From assembly GCF_009914755.1 (NCBI RefSeq), contig NC_060925.1: a stretch of 64,000 nt of DNA; one strand, written 5' to 3'. Shown here in pieces: positions 44,696 to 63,138 of the stretch. This DNA comes from the human T2T-CHM13v2.0 reference genome, Homo sapiens. Below the pieces are notes generated by a model. The model was not told where the DNA came from. It was given only the letters and a program-made list of their open reading frames with translations, and did no database searches. Position 1 is the first letter of the stretch. Every line of letters begins with the position of its first letter. Both the position numbers and the translations under genes were made by a program.

Positions 44696-46039
44696 TGTTC
44701 CATTCTTTTCGAGCAAGCAGGAAGCCACGGGGCTACCTCAGTTGCTCTTAGCCAGTAGCTCTCTCCACAGGTAGGCCTTCATCGGAGGGGAAAAGCCACC
44801 TTAGGGTTCCAGAGCTCAAGGGCGAATGATGCTTTCCACCCACTAATTTAAATACGGAAGCATCAGATTGTCTGCTTCTCAAGGAAAAGAGCTGTTACCA
44901 TCTCTGTCTCTTCAATGGGACCCACTCCTGGGCCCCACAGCAGGGCAGGTGCTCAGATGAATGGTGGCCGCCTGCCTGTGTCAGAGGGTCGGCCTAGGCA
45001 GGTTCCCCAGTCCGCTGGCCCGGGACGTCCTCCTCTCTCCCGGCCGCTCACTGTTCAGGACAGCCCGGGCCCCCCCCTGGGGCCTTGCAGGAGAGCTTCT
45101 GTGATCCACTGGGTGGCTTTGAGGGTAGCTCCCAGGAAAGGCTGCCTCAGCCCCAGCGTGATGGGGACGGGTAGGGGCCGATGAGGCTTCCCAGAGCAGC
45201 GATGGCCTTAGGTATTGCCAGAAGGAAACCTACTTTTCCTCCAAGATCAGAGGGAAGGATGAGGTGGGGTGTTGGAGCATCACCATATATATACATCACA
45301 CACACAGGGAAACACTCCTACTTGGATGGAGGATCTTTGCTGTTCTGTTGAGGCCAGCCTGATCCTGGAGGCAGGGCAGGGCCTGGCTGTTGCCCAGGCT
45401 CCAAAGAGGCGCCAGGGCGTCCCTTAGTCCTTACACTTTCTCCAGAACCTGCGGGCAGCAGGAGGCCCTTGTCGGGACAGGCAAGGGGGGCGGTGGTGCG
45501 GAATTGTGGGCGTGGCAGTCGGAGGCGCCAAGCCCGGGGAGGCGGGGCTTCCTGGGAGCATGCGTAGTGCCGGCTCTGCCTGGGCGGGGTCCTAGGCTGC
45601 TGCTCCCGCCTCCCCCGGCACAGGTAGGGCGCCCCGCAGACCCGGACAACGCTGGGTGTGGCTGAAAACAGGGAGTCATGGTGCGTTCTGGGGAAGGGTC
45701 AGGGCTGGGGGCTCGGGCCCCTGGACCAAAGACTCTAGCCAAATCCATCGGAGGCTGAGCAGGGCGATGGGGCAGGGCCGGGGGAGCCGTGGGGAAATGG
45801 GAGGGTGTGGGCCGAGCAGCGCCGGAGGCAGGTACCGACCATCGCCGGGTTTCCCAGAGGGCAGTGGTACCTGTGCCCACATGTGCGGCCTTTTTTGTAA
45901 AGGAACCTATCCCAACCCGAAGGCCCAAACGTGTGGCCGTGTAAGTTTAGTTGTGCCCGGAGTCCCAGGAGAGCCCGGACTGAGGGCAGCCAGAGGCCGG
46001 TGTCCGCAGAACGGCCCACGAGGCCTTCGGCTCAGTAGC

Positions 46040-46252
46040 CTGGAGTTTGAAATGCACCTTGAGCTTTAATGGCCTTTTCCTTGTGAGAATTCGAGTTAAC
46101 GTGCCTGCTGGTGCTTTTGATGGGTGAGGACGGTGAGGCAGGCCACACATCTCGCTTCTTTCCAGAACACTTCTGGGTAGTCGTTCAATTCCACATTTAA
46201 TCCAAAGCCAACAGTTCCATGGGTGACTGTGCTGCTGGCTGTAGGAAGCCGA
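46040..46252 (-). other. AKT3: Probable non-coding terminal exon of the AKT3 short-C-terminus isoform (3' end approximate)
   Basis: Minus-strand acceptor atcctcatctgtccacAG|TCGGC (plus ct 46253-54; second candidate AG at 46239-40); ATTAAA on minus at 46070-46065; distance from the 57540 donor (~11.3 kb) agrees with my recollection of the variant-2 structure. Confidence 0.65.
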
Positions 46253-46815: not shown

Positions 46816-46942
46816 GCTAAGGCAGCTGGATAAGCACAGCCAGGCCACAGCCCAGCAGCTGGTGCAGCTCCTCAGCAAGCAGAACCAGCTTCTCCTGGAG
46901 AGGCAGAGCCTGTCGGAAGAGGTGGACCGGCTGCGGACCCAG
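46816..46942 (+). CDS. SDCCAG8: SDCCAG8 penultimate coding exon (127 nt): (R)LRQLDKHSQATAQQLVQLLSKQNQLLLERQSLSEEVDRLRTQ, coiled-coil
   Basis: Acceptor tttttctccAG|G at 46814-15; donor CAG|GTactg at 46943; 1 nt plus 42 open codons with heptad Leu/Gln pattern; peptide recognised as the SDCCAG8 (NPHP10/BBS16) C-terminal region; phase 0 end joins in frame to 57560. Confidence 0.96.
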
Positions 46943-55776: not shown

Positions 55777-57542
55777 TTGGGTTGTTTTTCTTTTGAAGTG
55801 TTATCTGTTGGGATTTATGCTTATCCCTTTTGTATTCAGTCATCCTAGCATTTCTAAAGTTAGGAAGCCACTGTGTCAAGAGCGAGGCCACCAGGCCACC
55901 TGCCTTATGTGGCCAATCCATGGAGCAGGGGTGGAGGGCCATTCAAACCAGTCATTTAGCAGGACTGTGCTGGGTCAGTTCGATCACCTGGCCTGGAGGG
56001 CACGTCAGCTTGGTGCAAACCCTGCGTTTGACAATCAGATCGTGTTGGTGGCAGTCTCCGTGCTGTCAGTATCCCACTGAGGACAGAAGGGAGTCCCCTC
56101 TGCAATGGCAGGGCTCTAGGGCATAGTGCATGGGGTGGACTCCTCATGGGCCACTCAGACAGGGCCTGGAGAACAAAGCATCCCGTGGGCCCAGGAAATT
56201 GTCCACCTGGCTCCACGGGCCTGGGAGGGCTGTGTGCATGGGATGGCAGGTTTACGAGGAGGAGTGAGGCCTCCTGCCGGAGCCCCACCTGCATTCAGCC
56301 TGAGGCCAGGCCCCCCACCTACTCTAACTACCCTGCTGAGACCACCCCACTACTCACAGACCTGTTCAAGAAAAAGTTGTCCTCAGGGTCTCTCACACAC
56401 TGGGAAATCTACTTGAAATGTAAACATTACTTTTTCTCATTTTTCATAAAAGGCAACAGGCTGATGTTCATATATTTCTCTTGAATGCGGATTCAGTTTC
56501 ACTCATTGCCCTGTCTTGGAAATCCCCATGTTAATGATGGCTTAAATTAGGTTGATAGAGTCCTCCCTTGGAGTCCAGCTTGGAAAATCCTCACTGGAGA
56601 GGGGCAGGCCCACTTCTCTTTTTGGAAGATGGTTCCTAACTAAAGAAAGAGGGACCAGATTGGGCCCCTGGCCCTGCAGTGCGTCCCAATTTATCTGACG
56701 TAGAAACCGGGATTTGGAAAATACCATCCTGGCTTTTCTCTGGACTTCACAATCTAGAGGGCGAGGACTGTGGCCCAGTCACCTTCCCACACAGTGCACA
56801 GTAGAAACTCCAGACATGCTTTGTGGAGTGGAAACATTTCCAGTGGCTTCTGACTCTAGTTCCTGATGTGGTTTAAACTAATTTGGGCAGCCATGGCAGC
56901 AGAGGCCAGGAACAGTATTCAATACTTTCTGAACTTGTGATTCTCCCCCAACCTGATCTGCATGAAGCTACTTTGGAACATTTGTATCTGCGTAAAACTA
57001 AGAGACCTCAGTACACCCAATCCCCTCTTCCAACACATGTGAGGTTTCCATGTGAAAGTACTTTTTCATAGGTTACAATAAATTGCTTGCAGTTACAAAT
57101 TTGGAGGTGTTTCAGCTTGTATTGTTTCACGAGGAATTTCTTAGGGGCACTTGGCCTACACCCTGTTTTTGTTCTAGAATTACCTGCCGTTAAGGTCAGA
57201 TAAATTTTCAGTAAACAGATTATGGCACAAATCAATGTGTCCTTTCCCGGACAGAAGAGATGGCTCTCTGGCCATGTCCTAACACCAGACTGTCCTTATT
57301 TAAGAGGCAGGCGTGTCTTTTGTCTAGGTTGTCTTCAAATTTAACCCATTAAACCAGTTAACCTTATTTCATATGTGAAGGGCTTTGATGTGGACAAGAT
57401 GAGGCACAAACTTTTCATATAATTTCCACATTTTTAGCAACAGGTTTTTTTCTCCAACAACAGTTTTCATCATAAAAGGTGACTAAACCAGCAAATGAGA
57501 AGACAAATAACATTGAAGAACATGAGCTATTGAAACTTACTT

Positions 57543-57548
57543 TTTATT
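57543..57548 (-). terminator. AKT3: AKT3 distal poly(A) signal AATAAA
   Basis: Plus-strand TTTATT at 57543-48, overlapping the TAA stop of the alternative exon. Confidence 0.8.
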
Positions 57549-57590
57549 ATTTTTTCCAGTTACCCAGCATGCCACAATCTGATTGCTGAC
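57547..57590 (-). CDS. AKT3: AKT3 alternative C-terminal exon (PKB-gamma1 / isoform 2), coding part: (C)QQSDCGMLGNWKK*; exon 57590-57541
   Basis: Minus-strand acceptor tcatttatttcactctgttccatccAG| (plus ct 57591-92); same phase as the canonical exon (2 nt first); peptide recognised as the C-terminus of the AKT3 variant lacking Ser472; donor AAA|GTAAGT at 57540-57535. Confidence 0.92.
57560..57589 (+). CDS. SDCCAG8: SDCCAG8 last coding exon, coding part: LPSMPQSDC*
   Basis: Acceptor ctttttattattttttccAG| at 57558-59; TTA CCC AGC ATG CCA CAA TCT GAT TGC TGA; matches the recalled SDCCAG8 C-terminus. Confidence 0.95.
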   Translation, partial: LPSMPQSDC

Positions 57591-57900
57591 CTGGATGGAA
57601 CAGAGTGAAATAAATGATTTACAAAGAGATATTTACATTCATCTGGTTTAGACTTAATATGCCACAACGCACCACGACCTTCCCAGGGTGACACCGCCTC
57701 AGCCTGCAGTGGGGCTGGTCCTCATCAACGCGGGCGCTGTCCCCGCACGCAGTCGGGCTGGAGCTGGAGTCTGACTCTAGCTGAGCAGAGCTCCTGGTGT
57801 ATGTTTTCAGAAATGGCTTGAAGTTATGTGTTTAAATCTGCTCATTCGTATGCTAGGTTATACATATGATTTTCAATAAATGAACTTTTTAAAGACTTGA
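57590..57900 (+). other. SDCCAG8: SDCCAG8 3'UTR (end approximate)
   Basis: Follows TGA 57587-89; AATAAA at 57875-57880 followed by GU/U-rich sequence (gttgtaatgtttccttttt) at ~57901-57919. Confidence 0.85.
57875..57880 (+). terminator. SDCCAG8: SDCCAG8 main poly(A) signal AATAAA (proximal candidate also at 57609-57614)
   Basis: Canonical hexamer with a downstream GU/U-rich element about 20-40 nt later. Confidence 0.8.
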
Positions 57901-60900
57901 GTTGTAATGTTTCCTTTTTATCTTGTAGTGATGAACAAAACACACCAAAAAGGCACATATTTTAACTAGGCCAAAGTATATTAAGGACCAAACTTTTTTT
58001 CCTGCCATTCATTTTTCTTTTCATGATCTATATATCAATCATCCTTCACCTTTAATCAATGTCCCATCAGACTCCATTTTATTTATTTATCGTCCTACTT
58101 TGTGCACAATCAATCAATCAGGAGACACCAGGAAGCACTATGCATTACTCTTTCCATTCTGTTAAACAACGAAAACAGACAAAAAAGCATCTTTGGCTCG
58201 GTGGTGTCAGATTTTTTTCTTCAATACGCAGTATTTGAGAGGAGCCTAAAAACGTACTTAGTGAAATTAGAAAATTTACTTAGAGTATATCAAATATCTG
58301 TACACAGATAATTATTTGTCTAAAATAGTATTTCTACTATACACAATTAAGCCCTCAAATGCTTTAAAGTAATAAAAACGGACACTGGACATACCGTGTT
58401 GTATCTGAGAATGACAAACACTAAAGGCAAGGCTGCAGTTAGTTAGGACAGGTCCCTGACCTTCGGCTGCCCTGCCTGGCCAGCGAGCCATCATCCTCAT
58501 CACCATCTCAACACAGAGCTGATGTCACCATATGCTCAGCCTTGCCTCTCAGAAGTGATGTGGATTAGGCTTTGGAGGCGGTGGCATGATCTACACACAG
58601 AGACCATTTGAATCTCTTGAGCATGTAAAAGGTTCAAGCCTGAAACAGTAGAACTTCTATTCAGATTCAGAAGTTTTTTATTTCATCAAATGTGCTAGAC
58701 ATAAAGGCTGTCACATAAGATATTTTAATTGTCCTTAATTCTGTTTTAGATATACTGTGAATAAATTATACAATATTCTAAAAATAGCACCTTTAAAGAA
58801 TTATAGAGGTCACTTTTTTTTAGCCTCCTGGATCTGTCAACCCCAGTGGTTTTGAGAGAAGAGCACATGTGAGAATGCCCTCAAATTTGGCCGTGTGACA
58901 TACACATACATGCTTGACTCACTCTGGTCCCAAAAGCCATTCCTCTGTCTGGCTTCGTCACAGGAGCAAAGCCAAGTTTCTACAATAGTAGCTTTATGAG
59001 GTAAAATCAGAAAAAGGCCCCATCCAGAATGATTCAACGTGAAGTCAGACTGCAGTCCAGCCATCCTACCCATCTACATCACCCACGTCTAAGTTTGTTA
59101 ATTTGCCATGACATGTTGTTAGAAATACACTCTAAGAAAGGAAATATGCAGAGCAGTACATTATCAGGAAGACGTTAATGAAAAGCTACATTCCTTCAGA
59201 TTCTGGGTCCAAACCGTGTGTTGTATAGATGATTCGGGTCTGAATGTCCCCAGGGTCTGAGACCTCCTTCATCCCTGGCTTCACAGTACATCCATCCTAA
59301 ATCCAGTGCTGAGAGGTCAGCGTTTCCCCTCAGAAGCAGCCGTTCATCAAAGTTTGCACAACCGCACTACTGCCATTTCACTGAAGTAAAAATGATCCCC
59401 TATGTGTGTGTGTGTGAGCTACAAGGAATTATTTCTATATTTTCCTGTCACATTTTATACAAGGTAGGTTAATACCAGCTGGGGCTATTAAAAATCATGT
59501 TTTCATTAAAGAAGATTTAATTTGGGGGGATTATAGAACCACATCCAACAACAATAAACAGAGAAGTAGCAGATTGACATAGTGCTTTATTTAAGCTGTC
59601 TGTACGAAGGAAAATCATGTTCATCCCTATCATATACGTGTAAAAATACTAAGGATGTACAGTGTACAAAAACAGTTTCTCCTAGTTATTCCACATCCTT
59701 GTGGGTCATATACTTCAGGAAATAGACAGGTTTAGTATGACCAACAGTAATAGTAATACAGTTTCTTGGGTTTATAGTTGCATCTGCTTAAAATCCTTAA
59801 CCAGATGACTAGATCTTGCGCAGATCTAATGAAAGAACTAGCAAGGTCAAGAAATGTCACAAACTATAAAGCTACAGGGAGGTAATTCAATTACCAATTT
59901 AGAGGTTTTCTTTTTATTTAAATAAATACTTTACATTTCATGCTTGCCTGTAATGCACTACCAGGAGCAAGATAAGGAAATTCTACTGTAGACAGTACAA
60001 ACAGTAGCAGCAAAGTGTGTATGTTGAGGTGTAATAGAGAGACCCTGCAGTTAGTAAGGAAGGCCCTTACTTTTGTACTCTAGGAGAAGCAAGTGGCCCC
60101 TGCAAGAACAGTCAGCTTTAAGAAGCTGGAAATCAGGGATGGGAAATGGAAAACAATACTTGAATAATGCTATGTAATTAGTGTAGAAAGCAAAGCTGAG
60201 CGCGACCCTGCCAACCATCTAAGCAGAAATGGCCAATTTCCTCCAAGATGGCTGCATTATGACAAGAAGTCAAGCTTCATGACAGTTAGTATGGGCTGGA
60301 GTCTGCAAAGTCTGAACTGTATTCTCATAGAATGATTCCAGGTTTCAGGGTGTTCCACCTGCCAGAACCCAAAACTACAACTATGGGCGACACAAGGGAA
60401 GTTTTAGAAATCTCCCTCTACACGCATTTCTGGTTTTCTATTATTCCTCCATGGCAGCTGACAGATCTGGAAGTGAAAATAGGGGATTCTCAAAATCAAA
60501 GCCAAGAAGACACCTTGTGTGACACCAATGGAGTCTCAGAGGGTGGAATAGAAGTGACTGAGCCCCAGGCATGGCTGGGAACTGAGAGCCAGTGTGAGGA
60601 GTGGCCCGCCTGGGGCAATGTCAGTGCCAGTCATTAATCTTTAAGAAGTGTCCTTGGCCAAGGTCATGGGAATCACTTTAAGATTTGCGGGAGAAAAAAC
60701 CAAAACAACAAAAAGCTGTGTGCTTAGTGTTCGGTGTCATGCTTTCCCTCTAGAGGAGTAAGTGCTCTGAACATCAGCCAGTCTCAGCTTTCTGCTCTTC
60801 CTCTCACCTGTTTCTTTCTTATATAATGGATGCAAGACAACTTAAAGAACATACCTTCTAGTCTACTTTTTTGTCAAAATGAAACATTCAACATAATTCC

Positions 60901-63052
60901 AAGTGAAAAAAAAAAGATTAGCTATGTGTGTAAGTAAGAATGAACTACCATTTACTGTAACTTCCTACTCAATACTAAGGATGAACTTCACTCAGGTAGA
61001 AATATGAAAAAGAAGGATAACGTTGATGTCTGAATATGTCTTAGCTGCCTTAGTAAAATGCCCTTTAACCCCCGTCAGTCCCAGTGGCCCACCCACTGCC
61101 AGCAGTGGTTTCATAGCTATAAATCCACACTTCCAGCGTCAAGAGGCTAAGACATCTGCATATGAATATGATTCATCCTACTTAGAAAGTCACTTGCTCT
61201 TTCATACAATGCAATCATAATACTACGTCATGCTGTAGTCTTCCGTTTGGGAGCTGTCAGAGTTTAACTAAAATACATTTCCATGATCACTCCGCGGAGT
61301 AGGATGGCCTTCTGCTTGCCGCAAGAGTGGCCCCCAGCCCCTAGGACTTCACAGGCTGCTTTGGAAATTGTCAGCTCCTAGCACCAAAGGGTTTAATCTG
61401 AAGATCATCATTAATGAAGGAGAAAGATGAGGTTTGCATACATGCCCCCTTTCAGTGAGAAATGTTGGAATCTGGGGGACATGAGTATATACAGAAAAAG
61501 AAAAGCTGGAGGTGTTCTCTTTTTTTGTTGTTTTTTCCCTGATGGCTTAATTCAGTGATAAATGTACCATGATCCCAAGAAACACACCAGGTTCTTAGCC
61601 TTCACTGCCCATTTCCTAAATACTCAAGATGTGTTCATTTTGCCACGTAAAGATCATTTCTTATCTTCACTCAGGTCTCAATTTTCTTCATTACTTTTTG
61701 TTGCCAGGTCATCATAACGTTTCAAATTCTTAAATGAGCAAACGTCAACAGCTATTTGTTTCATTAACCCCTTGGCATGCATAGTTGGGGATTTTCTCAT
61801 TTTCAGTACCAAGGGGTTAAATGGCAGCATCTCTTCTCCCAAAGCCAAATTCTAACCAATATATTCCATTTCAGAGCCTTATCATTTTTTTTAACAGAGG
61901 AGAAAAAGTGCATGATTCTCATCAGCGTGTACAATCCTTGCACATGGGTCAAAAGTAACTGCAGTAAGTCTATTTTATATAAGTTGGAGCTGCGTTTGCT
62001 AACATGACATACAATTCTCATCACTAAAAAATAAATACTACTGCAATATAAACAAAATCATAAAAGGACATTCAAAGTTTCAACATCTGAGAAAAAGCTA
62101 ATTCACGTAGAACTGAAAGTAAAAAATTAAATAAGGCAAACACCTGTTTACCTTGGTGTAGAAATTTTGGTGAAAAGCAGTATCATTATACCTGTCTACA
62201 TTCTTCAGCCATCAGAGGTGATAAATGTCAAGAAGGAAAAAAGGTTTCCAAGCACAGGGGAAAGATGCTCTCTGGCTCAAATTGTTTCATAAGACCCTTT
62301 AAGTGACCTTGACTGTGCATATGCCTTCAGTTCTTGGTAGAACAGTGTTCACTTGCTCATGATTGCCCGTGAAGTCTCGACATCCACATGTGATATGGGC
62401 TTCTTCTACAGTATCCACCAGGAATTTAAAAAAAAAAAATTATATATATATATATATATCCCAACAGTTGTTCAGTCCTTCTACCAAATGCTTCCTAATC
62501 AATTCCAGCCACAGCTTAGTGATATATGCCTACTTCACGCACGGATCTGATGTGCTTTACATATGCACGCCACCACCCTTCCACAATTGCTTGTTCTGAA
62601 TTTATAAACTAAATCTTCTTAGTCTAGTTAGTTTTTCTCTTCTAGAAAGTTAAAAAATGTACCTAGAATCAGTGTATCTCATTTAGCCTTCACTGAGGGA
62701 AAAACTAAAAGATCAAAAGATGATAATTGGTGCACAAATGAACAATGGTGGGCTCATGACTTCCAAAGGTTGGAAAATTACTTCTTAAAGTTGCTATAAT
62801 AGTAAGACAGTAGCAGCAACAGCATGAGACCTTAGACTGAGATACAATTTCATGCAAAAACAAAAACTGGAGTGTATTTGCGTGTATGTGTGTTTTCATG
62901 AGGGTGAAAGGTGGCGAGGGGTGAGGACCCTTGGCTGGTCTGGGATGTCGGAAGGTGCCCCTGCTATGTGTAAGAGCTAGGACTGGTGATGTCCAGGAAT
63001 CATTTTCAGTAATAAATTGAAGATGACAGTGAAGTAGCAGAATGAAAGAGAC

Positions 63053-63138
63053 TTATTCTCGTCCACTTGCAGAGTAGGAAAATTGAGGGAAATGCGGCCG
63101 CCTCTCATTGTCCATGCAGTCCATACCATCCTCATCAT
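63053..63138 (-). CDS. AKT3: AKT3 (PKB-gamma) canonical last coding exon: (Y)[27 protein letters not shown]
   Basis: Minus-strand acceptor tttcctgcccacAG| (plus ct 63139-40); 2 nt plus 28 codons to TAA (63055-53); AGC-kinase hydrophobic motif FPQFSY with the Ser472 codon at 63077-79. Confidence 0.98.

What the first reader, a model, noticed from the sequence alone, without database searches (positions are those of the whole stretch)
57547..57590. Bidirectionally coding micro-exon: the SDCCAG8 and AKT3 isoform-2 C-termini are read from opposite strands of the same 30 bp, and both contain QSDC
Seen: the whole coding part of the SDCCAG8 last exon (57560-57589, LPSMPQSDC*) lies inside the antisense AKT3 alternative coding exon (57590-57547, CQQSDCGMLGNWKK*). 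An interrupted palindrome CAATC-T-GATTG (57575-57585) reads CAA TCT GAT TGC on plus and CAA TCA GAT TGT on minus, so both proteins contain Q-S-D-C. Known: this AKT3 variant lacks the Ser472 hydrophobic motif, and the genes are annotated as overlapping. Inference: one exon probably arose by antisense exonization of the other, a single variant here can change both proteins, and the shared QSDC may be chance or a shared motif.
Basis: partly seen in the sequence, partly recalled or inferred. Interest (0 to 1): 0.85.

Follow-up and report, generated by a model that had tools for sequence, protein, structure and literature searches.

The report
SDCCAG8/AKT3 antisense coding overlap
The last nine codons of SDCCAG8 and the 14-codon tail of a known AKT3 splice variant are read from opposite strands of the same DNA, and their shared QSDC follows from a symmetry of the genetic code rather than from a common functional motif.

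Summary
On the + strand, 57560-57589 reads LPSMPQSDC*. On the - strand, 57590-57547 reads (T|)GT..=CQQSDCGMLGNWKK*. CAATC-T-GATTG lies at 57575-57585.

Both exons are annotated, and the AKT3 variant lacking Ser472 is in print.

The shared QSDC needs no special explanation. The two frames have their third codon positions facing each other. In that phase CAR-TCN-GAY-TG is its own reverse complement, so Q-S(TCN)-D-C on one strand forces Q-S-D-(C/W/stop) on the other. A shared peptide of 4 or more residues arises in about 0.8-1.2% of 31-bp overlaps in this phase. Palindromes of this size occur 93 times in the window. No hairpin forms.

The AKT3 tail is the antisense of SDCCAG8's 3' splice site plus its last codons. 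It uses an acceptor 63 nt from the poly(A) site of the canonical AKT3 3'UTR. What it does is remove the hydrophobic motif.

"Micro-exon" is a misnomer. 67 of 90 possible single-base changes alter both proteins.

Which exon came first could not be tested directly; the evidence favours SDCCAG8 as the older. Low novelty.

The parts
57560..57589 (+). Coding part of the SDCCAG8 last exon: LPSMPQSDC plus TGA stop
   Evidence: hub annotation; 66 of 120 listed SDCCAG8 proteins end in exactly this tail
57560..57895 (+). SDCCAG8 last exon (336 nt): proximal AATAAA at 57609-57614, distal AATAAA at 57875-57880, annotated end at 57895
   Evidence: Hub annotation; hexamers read
57547..57590 (-). Coding part of the AKT3 alternative terminal exon: (T|)GT...TAA = CQQSDCGMLGNWKK*
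   Evidence: split codon completed by the T that ends AKT3 exon 13
57528..57590 (-). AKT3 alternative exon. Terminal form is 57590-57528, with the same 3' end as the canonical AKT3 3'UTR. Internal form is 57590-57541, with donor GTAAGT at 57540-57535
   Evidence: Hub annotation (exons of other transcripts); splice signals read
57575..57585 (.). Interrupted palindrome CAATC-T-GATTG centred on 57580, the shared wobble base of both Ser codons
   Evidence: arm length 5; code-symmetry enumeration
57541..57559 (+). SDCCAG8 intron-17 polypyrimidine tract and acceptor AG (57558-59). Its antisense encodes N-W-K-K-stop of the AKT3 tail and the AKT3 poly(A) hexamer AATAAA (57548-57543 on -), which overlaps the TAA stop
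   Evidence: Read
57591..57614 (-). Acceptor AG (57592-91) and pyrimidine-rich tract of the AKT3 alternative exon. It is the antisense of the start of the SDCCAG8 3'UTR, including its proximal AATAAA
   Evidence: Read
57528..63138 (-). Canonical AKT3 last exon. Coding part 63138-63053 gives (Y)[27 protein letters not shown]. The 3'UTR runs through the whole SDCCAG8 last exon
   Evidence: Hub annotation
46816..46942 (+). SDCCAG8 exon 17, ends ...EEVDRLRTQ; sets the frame of the last exon
46035..46252 (-). Further downstream AKT3 terminal exon used after the internal 57541-57590 form; acceptor AG at 46254-53 on the - strand
   Evidence: Hub annotation

Best explanation
SDCCAG8 (+) and AKT3 (-) are convergent genes whose 3' ends interpenetrate. 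The canonical AKT3 3'UTR runs through the whole SDCCAG8 last exon and ends at 57528, 32 nt inside SDCCAG8's last intron. The known AKT3 variant without Ser472 arises when exon 13 skips the canonical acceptor (63138) and uses a second acceptor at 57590, only 63 nt from that same poly(A) site. Translation then runs for 14 codons over the antisense of SDCCAG8's last nine codons and 3' splice site. It stops at a TAA that overlaps the AATAAA hexamer. The functional consequence is loss of the hydrophobic motif; the tail itself is most likely a passenger. The two frames are in the phase where third codon positions face each other (sas12 in Wei and Zhang's nomenclature). In that phase CAR-TCN-GAY-TG is self-complementary, so SDCCAG8's Q-S-D-C is mirrored as Q-S-D-C in AKT3 by the structure of the genetic code. 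The DNA palindrome is the nucleotide image of that symmetry, not a structural or binding element. Shown here: coordinates, frames, signals, code symmetry, chance rates, and conservation of the SDCCAG8 tail. Inferred: that the SDCCAG8 exon is the older one and that the AKT3 tail sequence has no function of its own.
For: Sequence and frames. Both acceptors, the GTAAGT donor, the AATAAA/TAA overlap and the shared 3' end at 57528 are read and match the hub annotation. Code symmetry: 128 of 128 TCN-serine codings of QSDC mirror to QSD(C/W/*); 71,476 of 67,108,864 13-mers (0.107%) give a mirrored tetrapeptide per register. This fits the 0.77-1.2% per 31-bp overlap. Wobble-only variants of LPSMPQSDC* allow only QQSD[C/W/*]G[M/I]LG on the other strand (2,048 variants), so most of the AKT3 tail is dictated by SDCCAG8. 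No RNA structure: z -1.02 (+ strand) and +0.37 (- strand), and the palindrome arms are unpaired in both minimum-energy folds. SDCCAG8 tail: 66 of 66 tails beginning LP, from 25 named genera of primates, rodents and lagomorphs, are exactly LPSMPQSDC. Distant unnamed representatives keep the Q-L(P) exon junction but have other tails (QLPI, QLPAGSRRPDTLST, QLPGSSNLMPDDT), so a terminal SDCCAG8 coding exon at this junction is old. Literature: the AKT3 variant lacking Ser472 is described (passages of PMC10670075, and PMC8306188). [quoted passage not shown] For sas12, third positions face third positions and doubly synonymous sites are most frequent (passage of PMC4316641).
Against: QLPSMPQSDC is the third-longest invariant run in a 12-sequence SDCCAG8 alignment (336 of 782 columns invariant; 23 of 774 nine-column windows fully invariant). 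That could reflect extra constraint from dual coding. However, I chose those rows because they carry the tail, so its invariance there is circular, and a functional SDCCAG8 C-terminus or splice and poly(A) signals would explain it equally. A guinea-pig UniRef record (P0318) carries the identical 14-residue AKT3 tail. This shows the frame, acceptor context and NWKK-stop are kept in a hystricomorph rodent, which a pure passenger model does not require. The record may be a projected gene model, and nine of the 14 residues are forced by SDCCAG8. A roughly 1% coincidence is still a coincidence. I saw no expression, ribosome-profiling or proteomic data.
Confidence: 0.82

Rival explanations
1. Jointly selected dual coding: both C-termini are functional, and the 30 bp is held by purifying selection on both frames. 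The wobble-aligned phase is retained because it lets both peptides be conserved at once.
For: The SDCCAG8 tail is invariant in 25 named genera and lies in one of the longest invariant runs. The identical AKT3 tail occurs in a guinea-pig record. 67 of 90 SNVs hit both proteins. The sas12 phase has the most doubly synonymous sites (PMC4316641 passage).
Against: Conservation of one peptide forces most of the other, so the AKT3 tail's conservation is not independent evidence. The tail replaces a conserved regulatory motif with 14 residues that are the antisense of a splice site, a pyrimidine tract (K-K) and a poly(A) hexamer (stop). The three AKT genes lose the motif by three unrelated splicing routes (passage), which points to loss of the motif, not the new tail, as the selected effect. 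One unnamed SDCCAG8 representative at 70% identity (P0125) reads LSSMPQ and then a different, longer tail. A Rhinopithecus model (P0096) ends SWPQSHCHC.
Confidence: 0.1
2. QSDC is a shared functional short motif (for example a docking or modification site) present in both proteins for the same reason.
For: Only the coincidence itself.
Against: Code symmetry produces it automatically. 362 different tetrapeptides can be mirrored this way. In SDCCAG8 the motif is at the extreme C-terminus, while in AKT3 it is internal to the tail. No paper in the searched library holds either peptide (0 papers).
Confidence: 0.02
3. The AKT3 reading is transcript-level noise: the acceptor at 57590 is used at a low level and the tail is rarely or never made as protein, so the region is effectively single-coding.
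For: I saw no endogenous protein evidence. The functional work cited in the reviews used overexpression (table row 'Overexpression of Akt3/-S472', PMC8306188). In my searches only 1 of 207 fetched AKT proteins carries the tail.
Against: RefSeq annotates coding transcripts with this exon (hub table). The variant is treated as real in the reviews and in PMC7703976. The 1-of-207 count is uninformative, because the human isoform itself is not a cluster representative in that database.
Confidence: 0.06

Closest known systems
Sense-antisense overlap of coding sequences in human genes, phase sas12 (Wei and Zhang 2015, PMC4316641; catalogue of CDS/CDS overlaps in Solda et al. 2008, PMC2330155)
   Same: Two annotated protein-coding genes on opposite strands share coding bases, and third codon positions face each other. 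Convergent 3'-end overlaps are the common class. CDS/CDS overlaps are rare and under-represented (passages).
   Different: The overlap is very short (30 bp) and involves only an alternative isoform on the AKT3 side. The example analysed in PMC4316641 (LRRC8E/ENSG00000214248) is the longest human case. I did not see AKT3/SDCCAG8 named in either paper (0 occurrences in PMC6746723; supplements not opened).
AKT C-terminal splice variants lacking the hydrophobic motif (AKT3 without Ser472, also called PKB-gamma-1; AKT2-13a)
   Same: This exon is the one that makes the AKT3 variant. The PH and kinase domains are kept, and the FPQFSYS motif is replaced by a short unrelated tail.
   Different: Nothing differs; it is that variant. 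What the passages I read do not mention is that its tail is the antisense of the SDCCAG8 stop-proximal codons and 3' splice site. The primary papers (Brodbeck 2001, recalled; Suyama 2018, cited) could not be opened.
Alternative 3' splice site inside a terminal exon (3'UTR intron)
   Same: The acceptor at 57590 lies inside the canonical last exon (57528-63138), and both forms end at the same poly(A) site.
   Different: Here the event changes the coding end and not only the UTR.

Membership tests
Sense-antisense CDS/CDS overlap, phase sas12 | The same bases are annotated as coding on both strands | tested here: met
   Hub annotation; translations; 57560-57589 lies inside 57547-57590
Sense-antisense CDS/CDS overlap, phase sas12 | Third codon positions of the two frames coincide | tested here: met
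   + codons start at 57560+3k and - codons start at 57588-3k, so the shared third positions are 57562, 57565 ... 57589 (used)
Sense-antisense CDS/CDS overlap, phase sas12 | Both frames are translated in vivo | not testable with these tools
   No RNA-seq, Ribo-seq or proteomics tool. The literature passages seen treat the AKT3 variant as real
AKT3 variant lacking Ser472 | Exon 13 is joined in frame to an alternative last coding exon | tested here: met
   Exon 13 ends ...PPEK+T; T+GT = Cys, then QQSDCGMLGNWKK*
AKT3 variant lacking Ser472 | The hydrophobic motif is absent | tested here: met
   The motif-bearing sequence ...[14 protein letters not shown] is encoded only by 63138-63053. The residue number is taken from the literature
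Microexon | Exon of about 30 nt or less (definition recalled) | tested here: not met
   The exons are 50 or 63 nt (AKT3) and 336 nt (SDCCAG8) by the hub annotation; only the shared coding part is 30 bp
Functional palindrome (hairpin or dimer binding site) | More frequent or more stable than chance; arms able to pair | tested here: not met
   93 such palindromes in 64 kb. A 1-nt loop cannot close. Folds have z -1.02 and +0.37 with the arms unpaired. The repeat finder reported no arm of 8 nt or more here. Protein binding was not tested
Exonized transposable element | The exon lies in a repeat copy | tested here: inconclusive
   57528-57590 is not in the hub's list of masked stretches (only stretches of 100 nt or more are listed). 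The 141-bp region has 1 match in its own genome

The most novel reading that the evidence does not exclude
The 30-bp segment is a truly dual-constrained coding element. Selection acts on the AKT3 tail as well as on SDCCAG8, which would explain why QLPSMPQSDC is among the most invariant stretches of an otherwise fast-evolving protein. In this reading, use of the AKT3 acceptor at 57590 is coupled to SDCCAG8 3'-end processing, because the two acceptors face each other 31 bp apart and each gene's poly(A) hexamer is the complement of the other's pyrimidine tract. The ratio of AKT3 with and without the hydrophobic motif would then depend on SDCCAG8 transcription.
Probability: 0.07. Interest if true: 0.5.

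Novelty: already known. Interest (0 to 1): 0.2.

Why it matters
There are two practical points. First, variant interpretation: a change in 57560-57589 should be scored against both SDCCAG8 (a ciliopathy gene) and the AKT3 variant, since 67 of 90 possible SNVs alter both proteins. A change of SDCCAG8's TGA stop to TAA or TAG would also put a stop in the AKT3 frame. Second, method: identical short peptides on opposite strands in the wobble-aligned phase are a predictable product of the genetic code (0.107% per register; 362 possible tetrapeptides). Neither they nor conservation of the second frame should be taken as evidence of shared function. Apart from that, the locus is an annotated, ordinary convergent overlap.

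Tried and rejected
1. Species spread of the AKT3 tail. I then located AKT3 exon 13 in the window's own genome and searched with its 44-residue open frame, and afterwards with the last 40 residues of the one hit that carried the tail. Result: 1 of 207 fetched AKT proteins has the tail (Cavia porcellus). The human isoform itself does not appear as a cluster representative, so the database cannot show the spread. The question stays open.

2. Naming the distant SDCCAG8 representatives. The representative library has no names, and the Atlas gave only 'Chordata'. I therefore describe them by identity only.

3. RNA structure and larger inverted repeats around the palindrome: nothing.

4. Primary papers: Suyama 2018 (PMC7501878) and Brodbeck 2001 (DOI) are not held.

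6. Literature on the coding overlap itself. 'AKT3 + SDCCAG8 + overlap' gave 35 papers (listing seen). 'AKT3 + SDCCAG8 + antisense' gave 3. The peptide strings gave 0. In PMC5414975 and PMC6395382, the passages only say that the genes flank each other or share regulatory regions. No paper I saw describes the antisense coding overlap or the QSDC coincidence. Supplements were not opened.

7. My recollection that the first rat cDNA was a truncated form could not be checked and is not used.

Full report
**Observation**

The + strand reads ...ttttttccag|TTA CCC AGC ATG CCA CAA TCT GAT TGC TGA from 57560 to 57589, which is LPSMPQSDC*. SDCCAG8 exon 17 (46817-46942) ends ...EEVDRLRTQ in phase 0, so this is the frame in use.

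The - strand reads ...ttccatccag|GT CAG CAA TCA GAT TGT GGC ATG CTG GGT AAC TGG AAA AAA TAA from 57590 to 57547. From the first whole codon this gives QQSDCGMLGNWKK*.

I located the upstream AKT3 exon in the window's own genome through a Pkinase_C match and read it. It lies at G000:C1:242924120-242924222, which is window 70120-70222 and so outside the window. It is 103 nt and encodes [34 protein letters not shown] plus one T, followed by gtaagt.

The canonical last exon encodes (Y)[27 protein letters not shown]. The alternative exon therefore removes the hydrophobic motif. The interrupted palindrome CAATC-T-GATTG is at 57575-57585 with 5-bp arms.

**Anatomy**

The hub annotation and the sequence agree on a compact arrangement.

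- The canonical AKT3 last exon (63138-57528) has a 3'UTR that crosses the whole SDCCAG8 last exon (57560-57895). It ends 32 nt inside SDCCAG8's last intron.
- The alternative AKT3 acceptor (AG at 57592-91 on the - strand) lies inside that 3'UTR, 63 nt from its end. The variant is thus an alternative 3' splice site within the terminal exon that uses the same poly(A) site.
- On the - strand, the AATAAA hexamer (57548-57543) overlaps the TAA stop (57549-57547).
- A GTAAGT donor at 57540-57535 explains the annotated internal form (57541-57590). That form continues to 46252-46035, whose acceptor AG is at 46254-53.
- The stop is then 6 nt from the junction. By the usual 50-55-nt rule (recalled), this should not trigger nonsense-mediated decay.
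- The two acceptors face each other across 31 bp.
- N-W is the antisense of SDCCAG8's CCAG|TT acceptor. K-K is the antisense of its T6 pyrimidine tract. The stop and poly(A) hexamer are the antisense of TTTATTA.
- Symmetrically, the pyrimidine tract of the AKT3 acceptor is the antisense of the start of the SDCCAG8 3'UTR, including a proximal AATAAA (57609-57614).
- 'Micro-exon' does not fit: the exons are 50 or 63 nt and 336 nt.
- The 141-bp region is unique in its genome (1 match) and is not in the hub's list of masked repeats.

**Why both proteins read QSDC**

+ codons start at 57560+3k and - codons at 57588-3k, so the third positions of the two frames coincide (57562, 57565 ... 57589). First positions face second positions. 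This is phase sas12 in the nomenclature of Wei and Zhang (PMC4316641, passage seen).

In this phase the degenerate string CAR TCN GAY TG is its own reverse complement. Enumeration shows that all 128 codings of Q-S-D-C that use TCN serine read Q-S-D-C (64), Q-S-D-W (32) or Q-S-D-stop (32) on the other strand. The last residue depends only on the wobble base of the preceding + codon (CCA here, giving TGT).

With AGY serine the mirror is Q-S-L-x (64 codings). Across all 13-mers, 71,476 of 67,108,864 (0.107%) give a mirrored stop-free tetrapeptide, and 362 different tetrapeptides can do so.

With about seven registers in a 31-bp overlap, this matches the simulations:

| 31-mers tested | Shared peptide of 4 or more residues | Rate |
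|---|---|---|
| Random sequences at window base composition | 3,064 of 400,000 | 0.77% |
| All 31-mers of the window | 525 of 63,969 | 0.82% |
| Window 31-mers open in both frames | 373 of 30,355 | 1.2% |

Odd palindromes with arms of 5 bp or more occur at 93 of 64,000 centres in the window. The palindrome cannot form a hairpin because the loop would be 1 nt. In the minimum-energy folds of 57555-57605 its arms are unpaired, and the energies are ordinary (z -1.02 for the + strand, +0.37 for the - strand). No longer inverted repeat covers it.

The shared QSDC is therefore a roughly 1% coincidence that the code makes possible. It is not evidence of a motif.

**Mutual constraint**

Of the 90 possible single-base changes in 57560-57589:

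| Effect | Number of SNVs |
|---|---|
| Change both proteins | 67 |
| Change only SDCCAG8 | 7 |
| Change only the AKT3 tail | 5 |
| Change neither | 11 |

.

If SDCCAG8's peptide is held fixed and only wobble bases vary within the codon families used, the other strand can read only QQSD[C/W/*]G[M/I]LG (2,048 variants). Over all 82,944 synonymous codings, the AKT3 frame is open in 20,736. A TAA or TAG stop in SDCCAG8 would place a stop at the first whole AKT3 codon.

It follows that conservation of the AKT3 tail in another species is not independent evidence of selection on it.

**Conservation**

I searched with exon 17 (378 hits, the best 120 listed). Among those 120, 66 end in exactly LPSMPQSDC, and no other tail begins with LP.

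The 66 come from 25 named genera: Homo, Pan, Gorilla, Pongo, Nomascus, Symphalangus, Macaca, Papio, Theropithecus, Chlorocebus, Saimiri, Callithrix, Aotus, Cebus, Sapajus, Carlito, Eulemur, Prolemur, Cricetulus, Peromyscus, Onychomys, Marmota, Urocitellus, Lepus and Ochotona. One further record is unnamed.

The other 54 are:

- alternative exons (for example RRNLALSPRLECSDVIIVH, 12 proteins);
- intron read-through models beginning with V;
- other frames of the same exon;
- one Rhinopithecus model ending SWPQSHCHC.

Tupaia, Fukomys, Heterocephalus and Apodemus are represented only by non-canonical forms.

A search of the 50%-identity representatives (282 hits, 150 listed, 36 tails inspected) gave the following:

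- One unnamed representative at 85% identity has the same tail.
- One at 70% identity reads LSSMPQ and then a different, longer tail.
- Representatives at 57% identity or less keep the Q-L(P) junction but end differently (QLPI; QLPAGSRRPDTLST; QLPGSSNLMPDDT; QLPGFRHSDK...; QLNFSKADK).

I could not name these species; the Atlas gave only Chordata. I infer that a terminal SDCCAG8 coding exon at this junction is old, while the SMPQSDC* sequence is confined to part of the mammals.

In an alignment of 12 sequences (77-97% identical to the Saimiri protein), QLPSMPQSDC is the third-longest invariant run. Those rows were chosen for having the tail, so this is circular for the tail itself.

**The AKT3 side**

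I therefore used the open frame over exon 13 (1,079 hits, 120 listed), and then the last 40 residues of the only hit with the tail (669 hits, 120 listed).

Of 207 distinct AKT proteins fetched, 1 carries CQQSDCGMLGNWKK. It is a Cavia porcellus UniRef entry of 456 residues. The human isoform itself is not a cluster representative there, so this database cannot show how widely the tail occurs.

The guinea-pig record shows that the frame, including NWKK-stop (which SDCCAG8's protein does not force), exists in a distant rodent. It may be a projected gene model.

Many listed fragments continue 'CK...' or 'CE...' after PPEK. These are read-through of the gtaag/gtgag donor and have nothing to do with this exon.

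**Order of origin (inference)**

The SDCCAG8 exon is constitutive: it carries the stop codon and the poly(A) signals, and its junction is kept in distant vertebrates.

The AKT3 exon is an alternative one. Its tail is built from the antisense of another gene's splice and coding signals. The three AKT genes lose the motif through three different splicing routes that 'emerged independently' (PMC7703976, passage).

I therefore favour exonization on the AKT3 side, inside its own 3'UTR. It is not shown.

**What is known**

The AKT3 variant lacking Ser472 and its pro-apoptotic effect when overexpressed are described in reviews citing Suyama et al. 2018 (passages). The first description by Brodbeck et al. 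2001 is recalled only; neither primary paper is held.

Convergent overlaps are the commonest class among human protein-coding gene pairs (PMC6746723, passages). CDS/CDS overlaps are under-represented but catalogued (PMC2330155, passages).

I found no paper that describes this particular coding overlap or the QSDC coincidence:

- AKT3 + SDCCAG8 + overlap: 35 papers;
- AKT3 + SDCCAG8 + antisense: 3 papers;
- the peptide strings: 0 papers;
- passages read.

Supplements were not opened.

**Verdict**

It concerns annotated exons and a published isoform, and its eye-catching part is explained by the genetic code. Interest is low. The residual interest lies in two-gene variant interpretation and in the untested possibility of joint constraint or of coupling between the two facing 3' splice sites.

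Noticed in passing
window 57560-57606, + strand: Predicted SDCCAG8 isoforms in other species read the same last exon in the other two + frames. The first is ...VTQHATI* (Macaca nemestrina P0058 and P0085, Apodemus P0100), stopping at the TGA at 57580-82. The second is ...YPACHNLIADLDGTE* (Chlorocebus P0059, P0077, P0083). With the AKT3 frame, four of the six frames of this stretch are annotated as coding in some model. A species with both LPSMPQSDC* and VTQHATI* must have 57560-57582 identical to human.
   Followed up: partly
window 57543-57548 (-) and 57609-57614 (+): There is a mirror arrangement of signals: each gene's AATAAA hexamer is the complement of part of the other gene's acceptor pyrimidine tract. 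The SDCCAG8 proximal AATAAA lies only 20 nt after its stop codon and could give a very short 3'UTR form. Its use is unknown.
   Followed up: no
L002 313-447 (-), i.e. G000:C1:242924112-242924246: Read-through of the AKT3 exon-13 donor (T|gtaag) also gives Cys-Lys. Many database fragments therefore continue 'CK...' or 'CE...' after PPEK. These unspliced gene models could be mistaken for variants lacking the hydrophobic motif.
   Followed up: partly
SDCCAG8 proteins P0015, P0016 and others (apes): Twelve listed ape isoforms end in RRNLALSPRLECSDVIIVH after exon 17. This is an alternative terminal exon whose peptide looks like a translated Alu-type repeat (resemblance recalled, not tested).
   Followed up: no
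window 57483-57491 and 57643-57651: A perfect 9-nt inverted repeat, CTAAACCAG / CTGGTTTAG, flanks the overlap at 151 nt spacing. It is probably chance.
   Followed up: no
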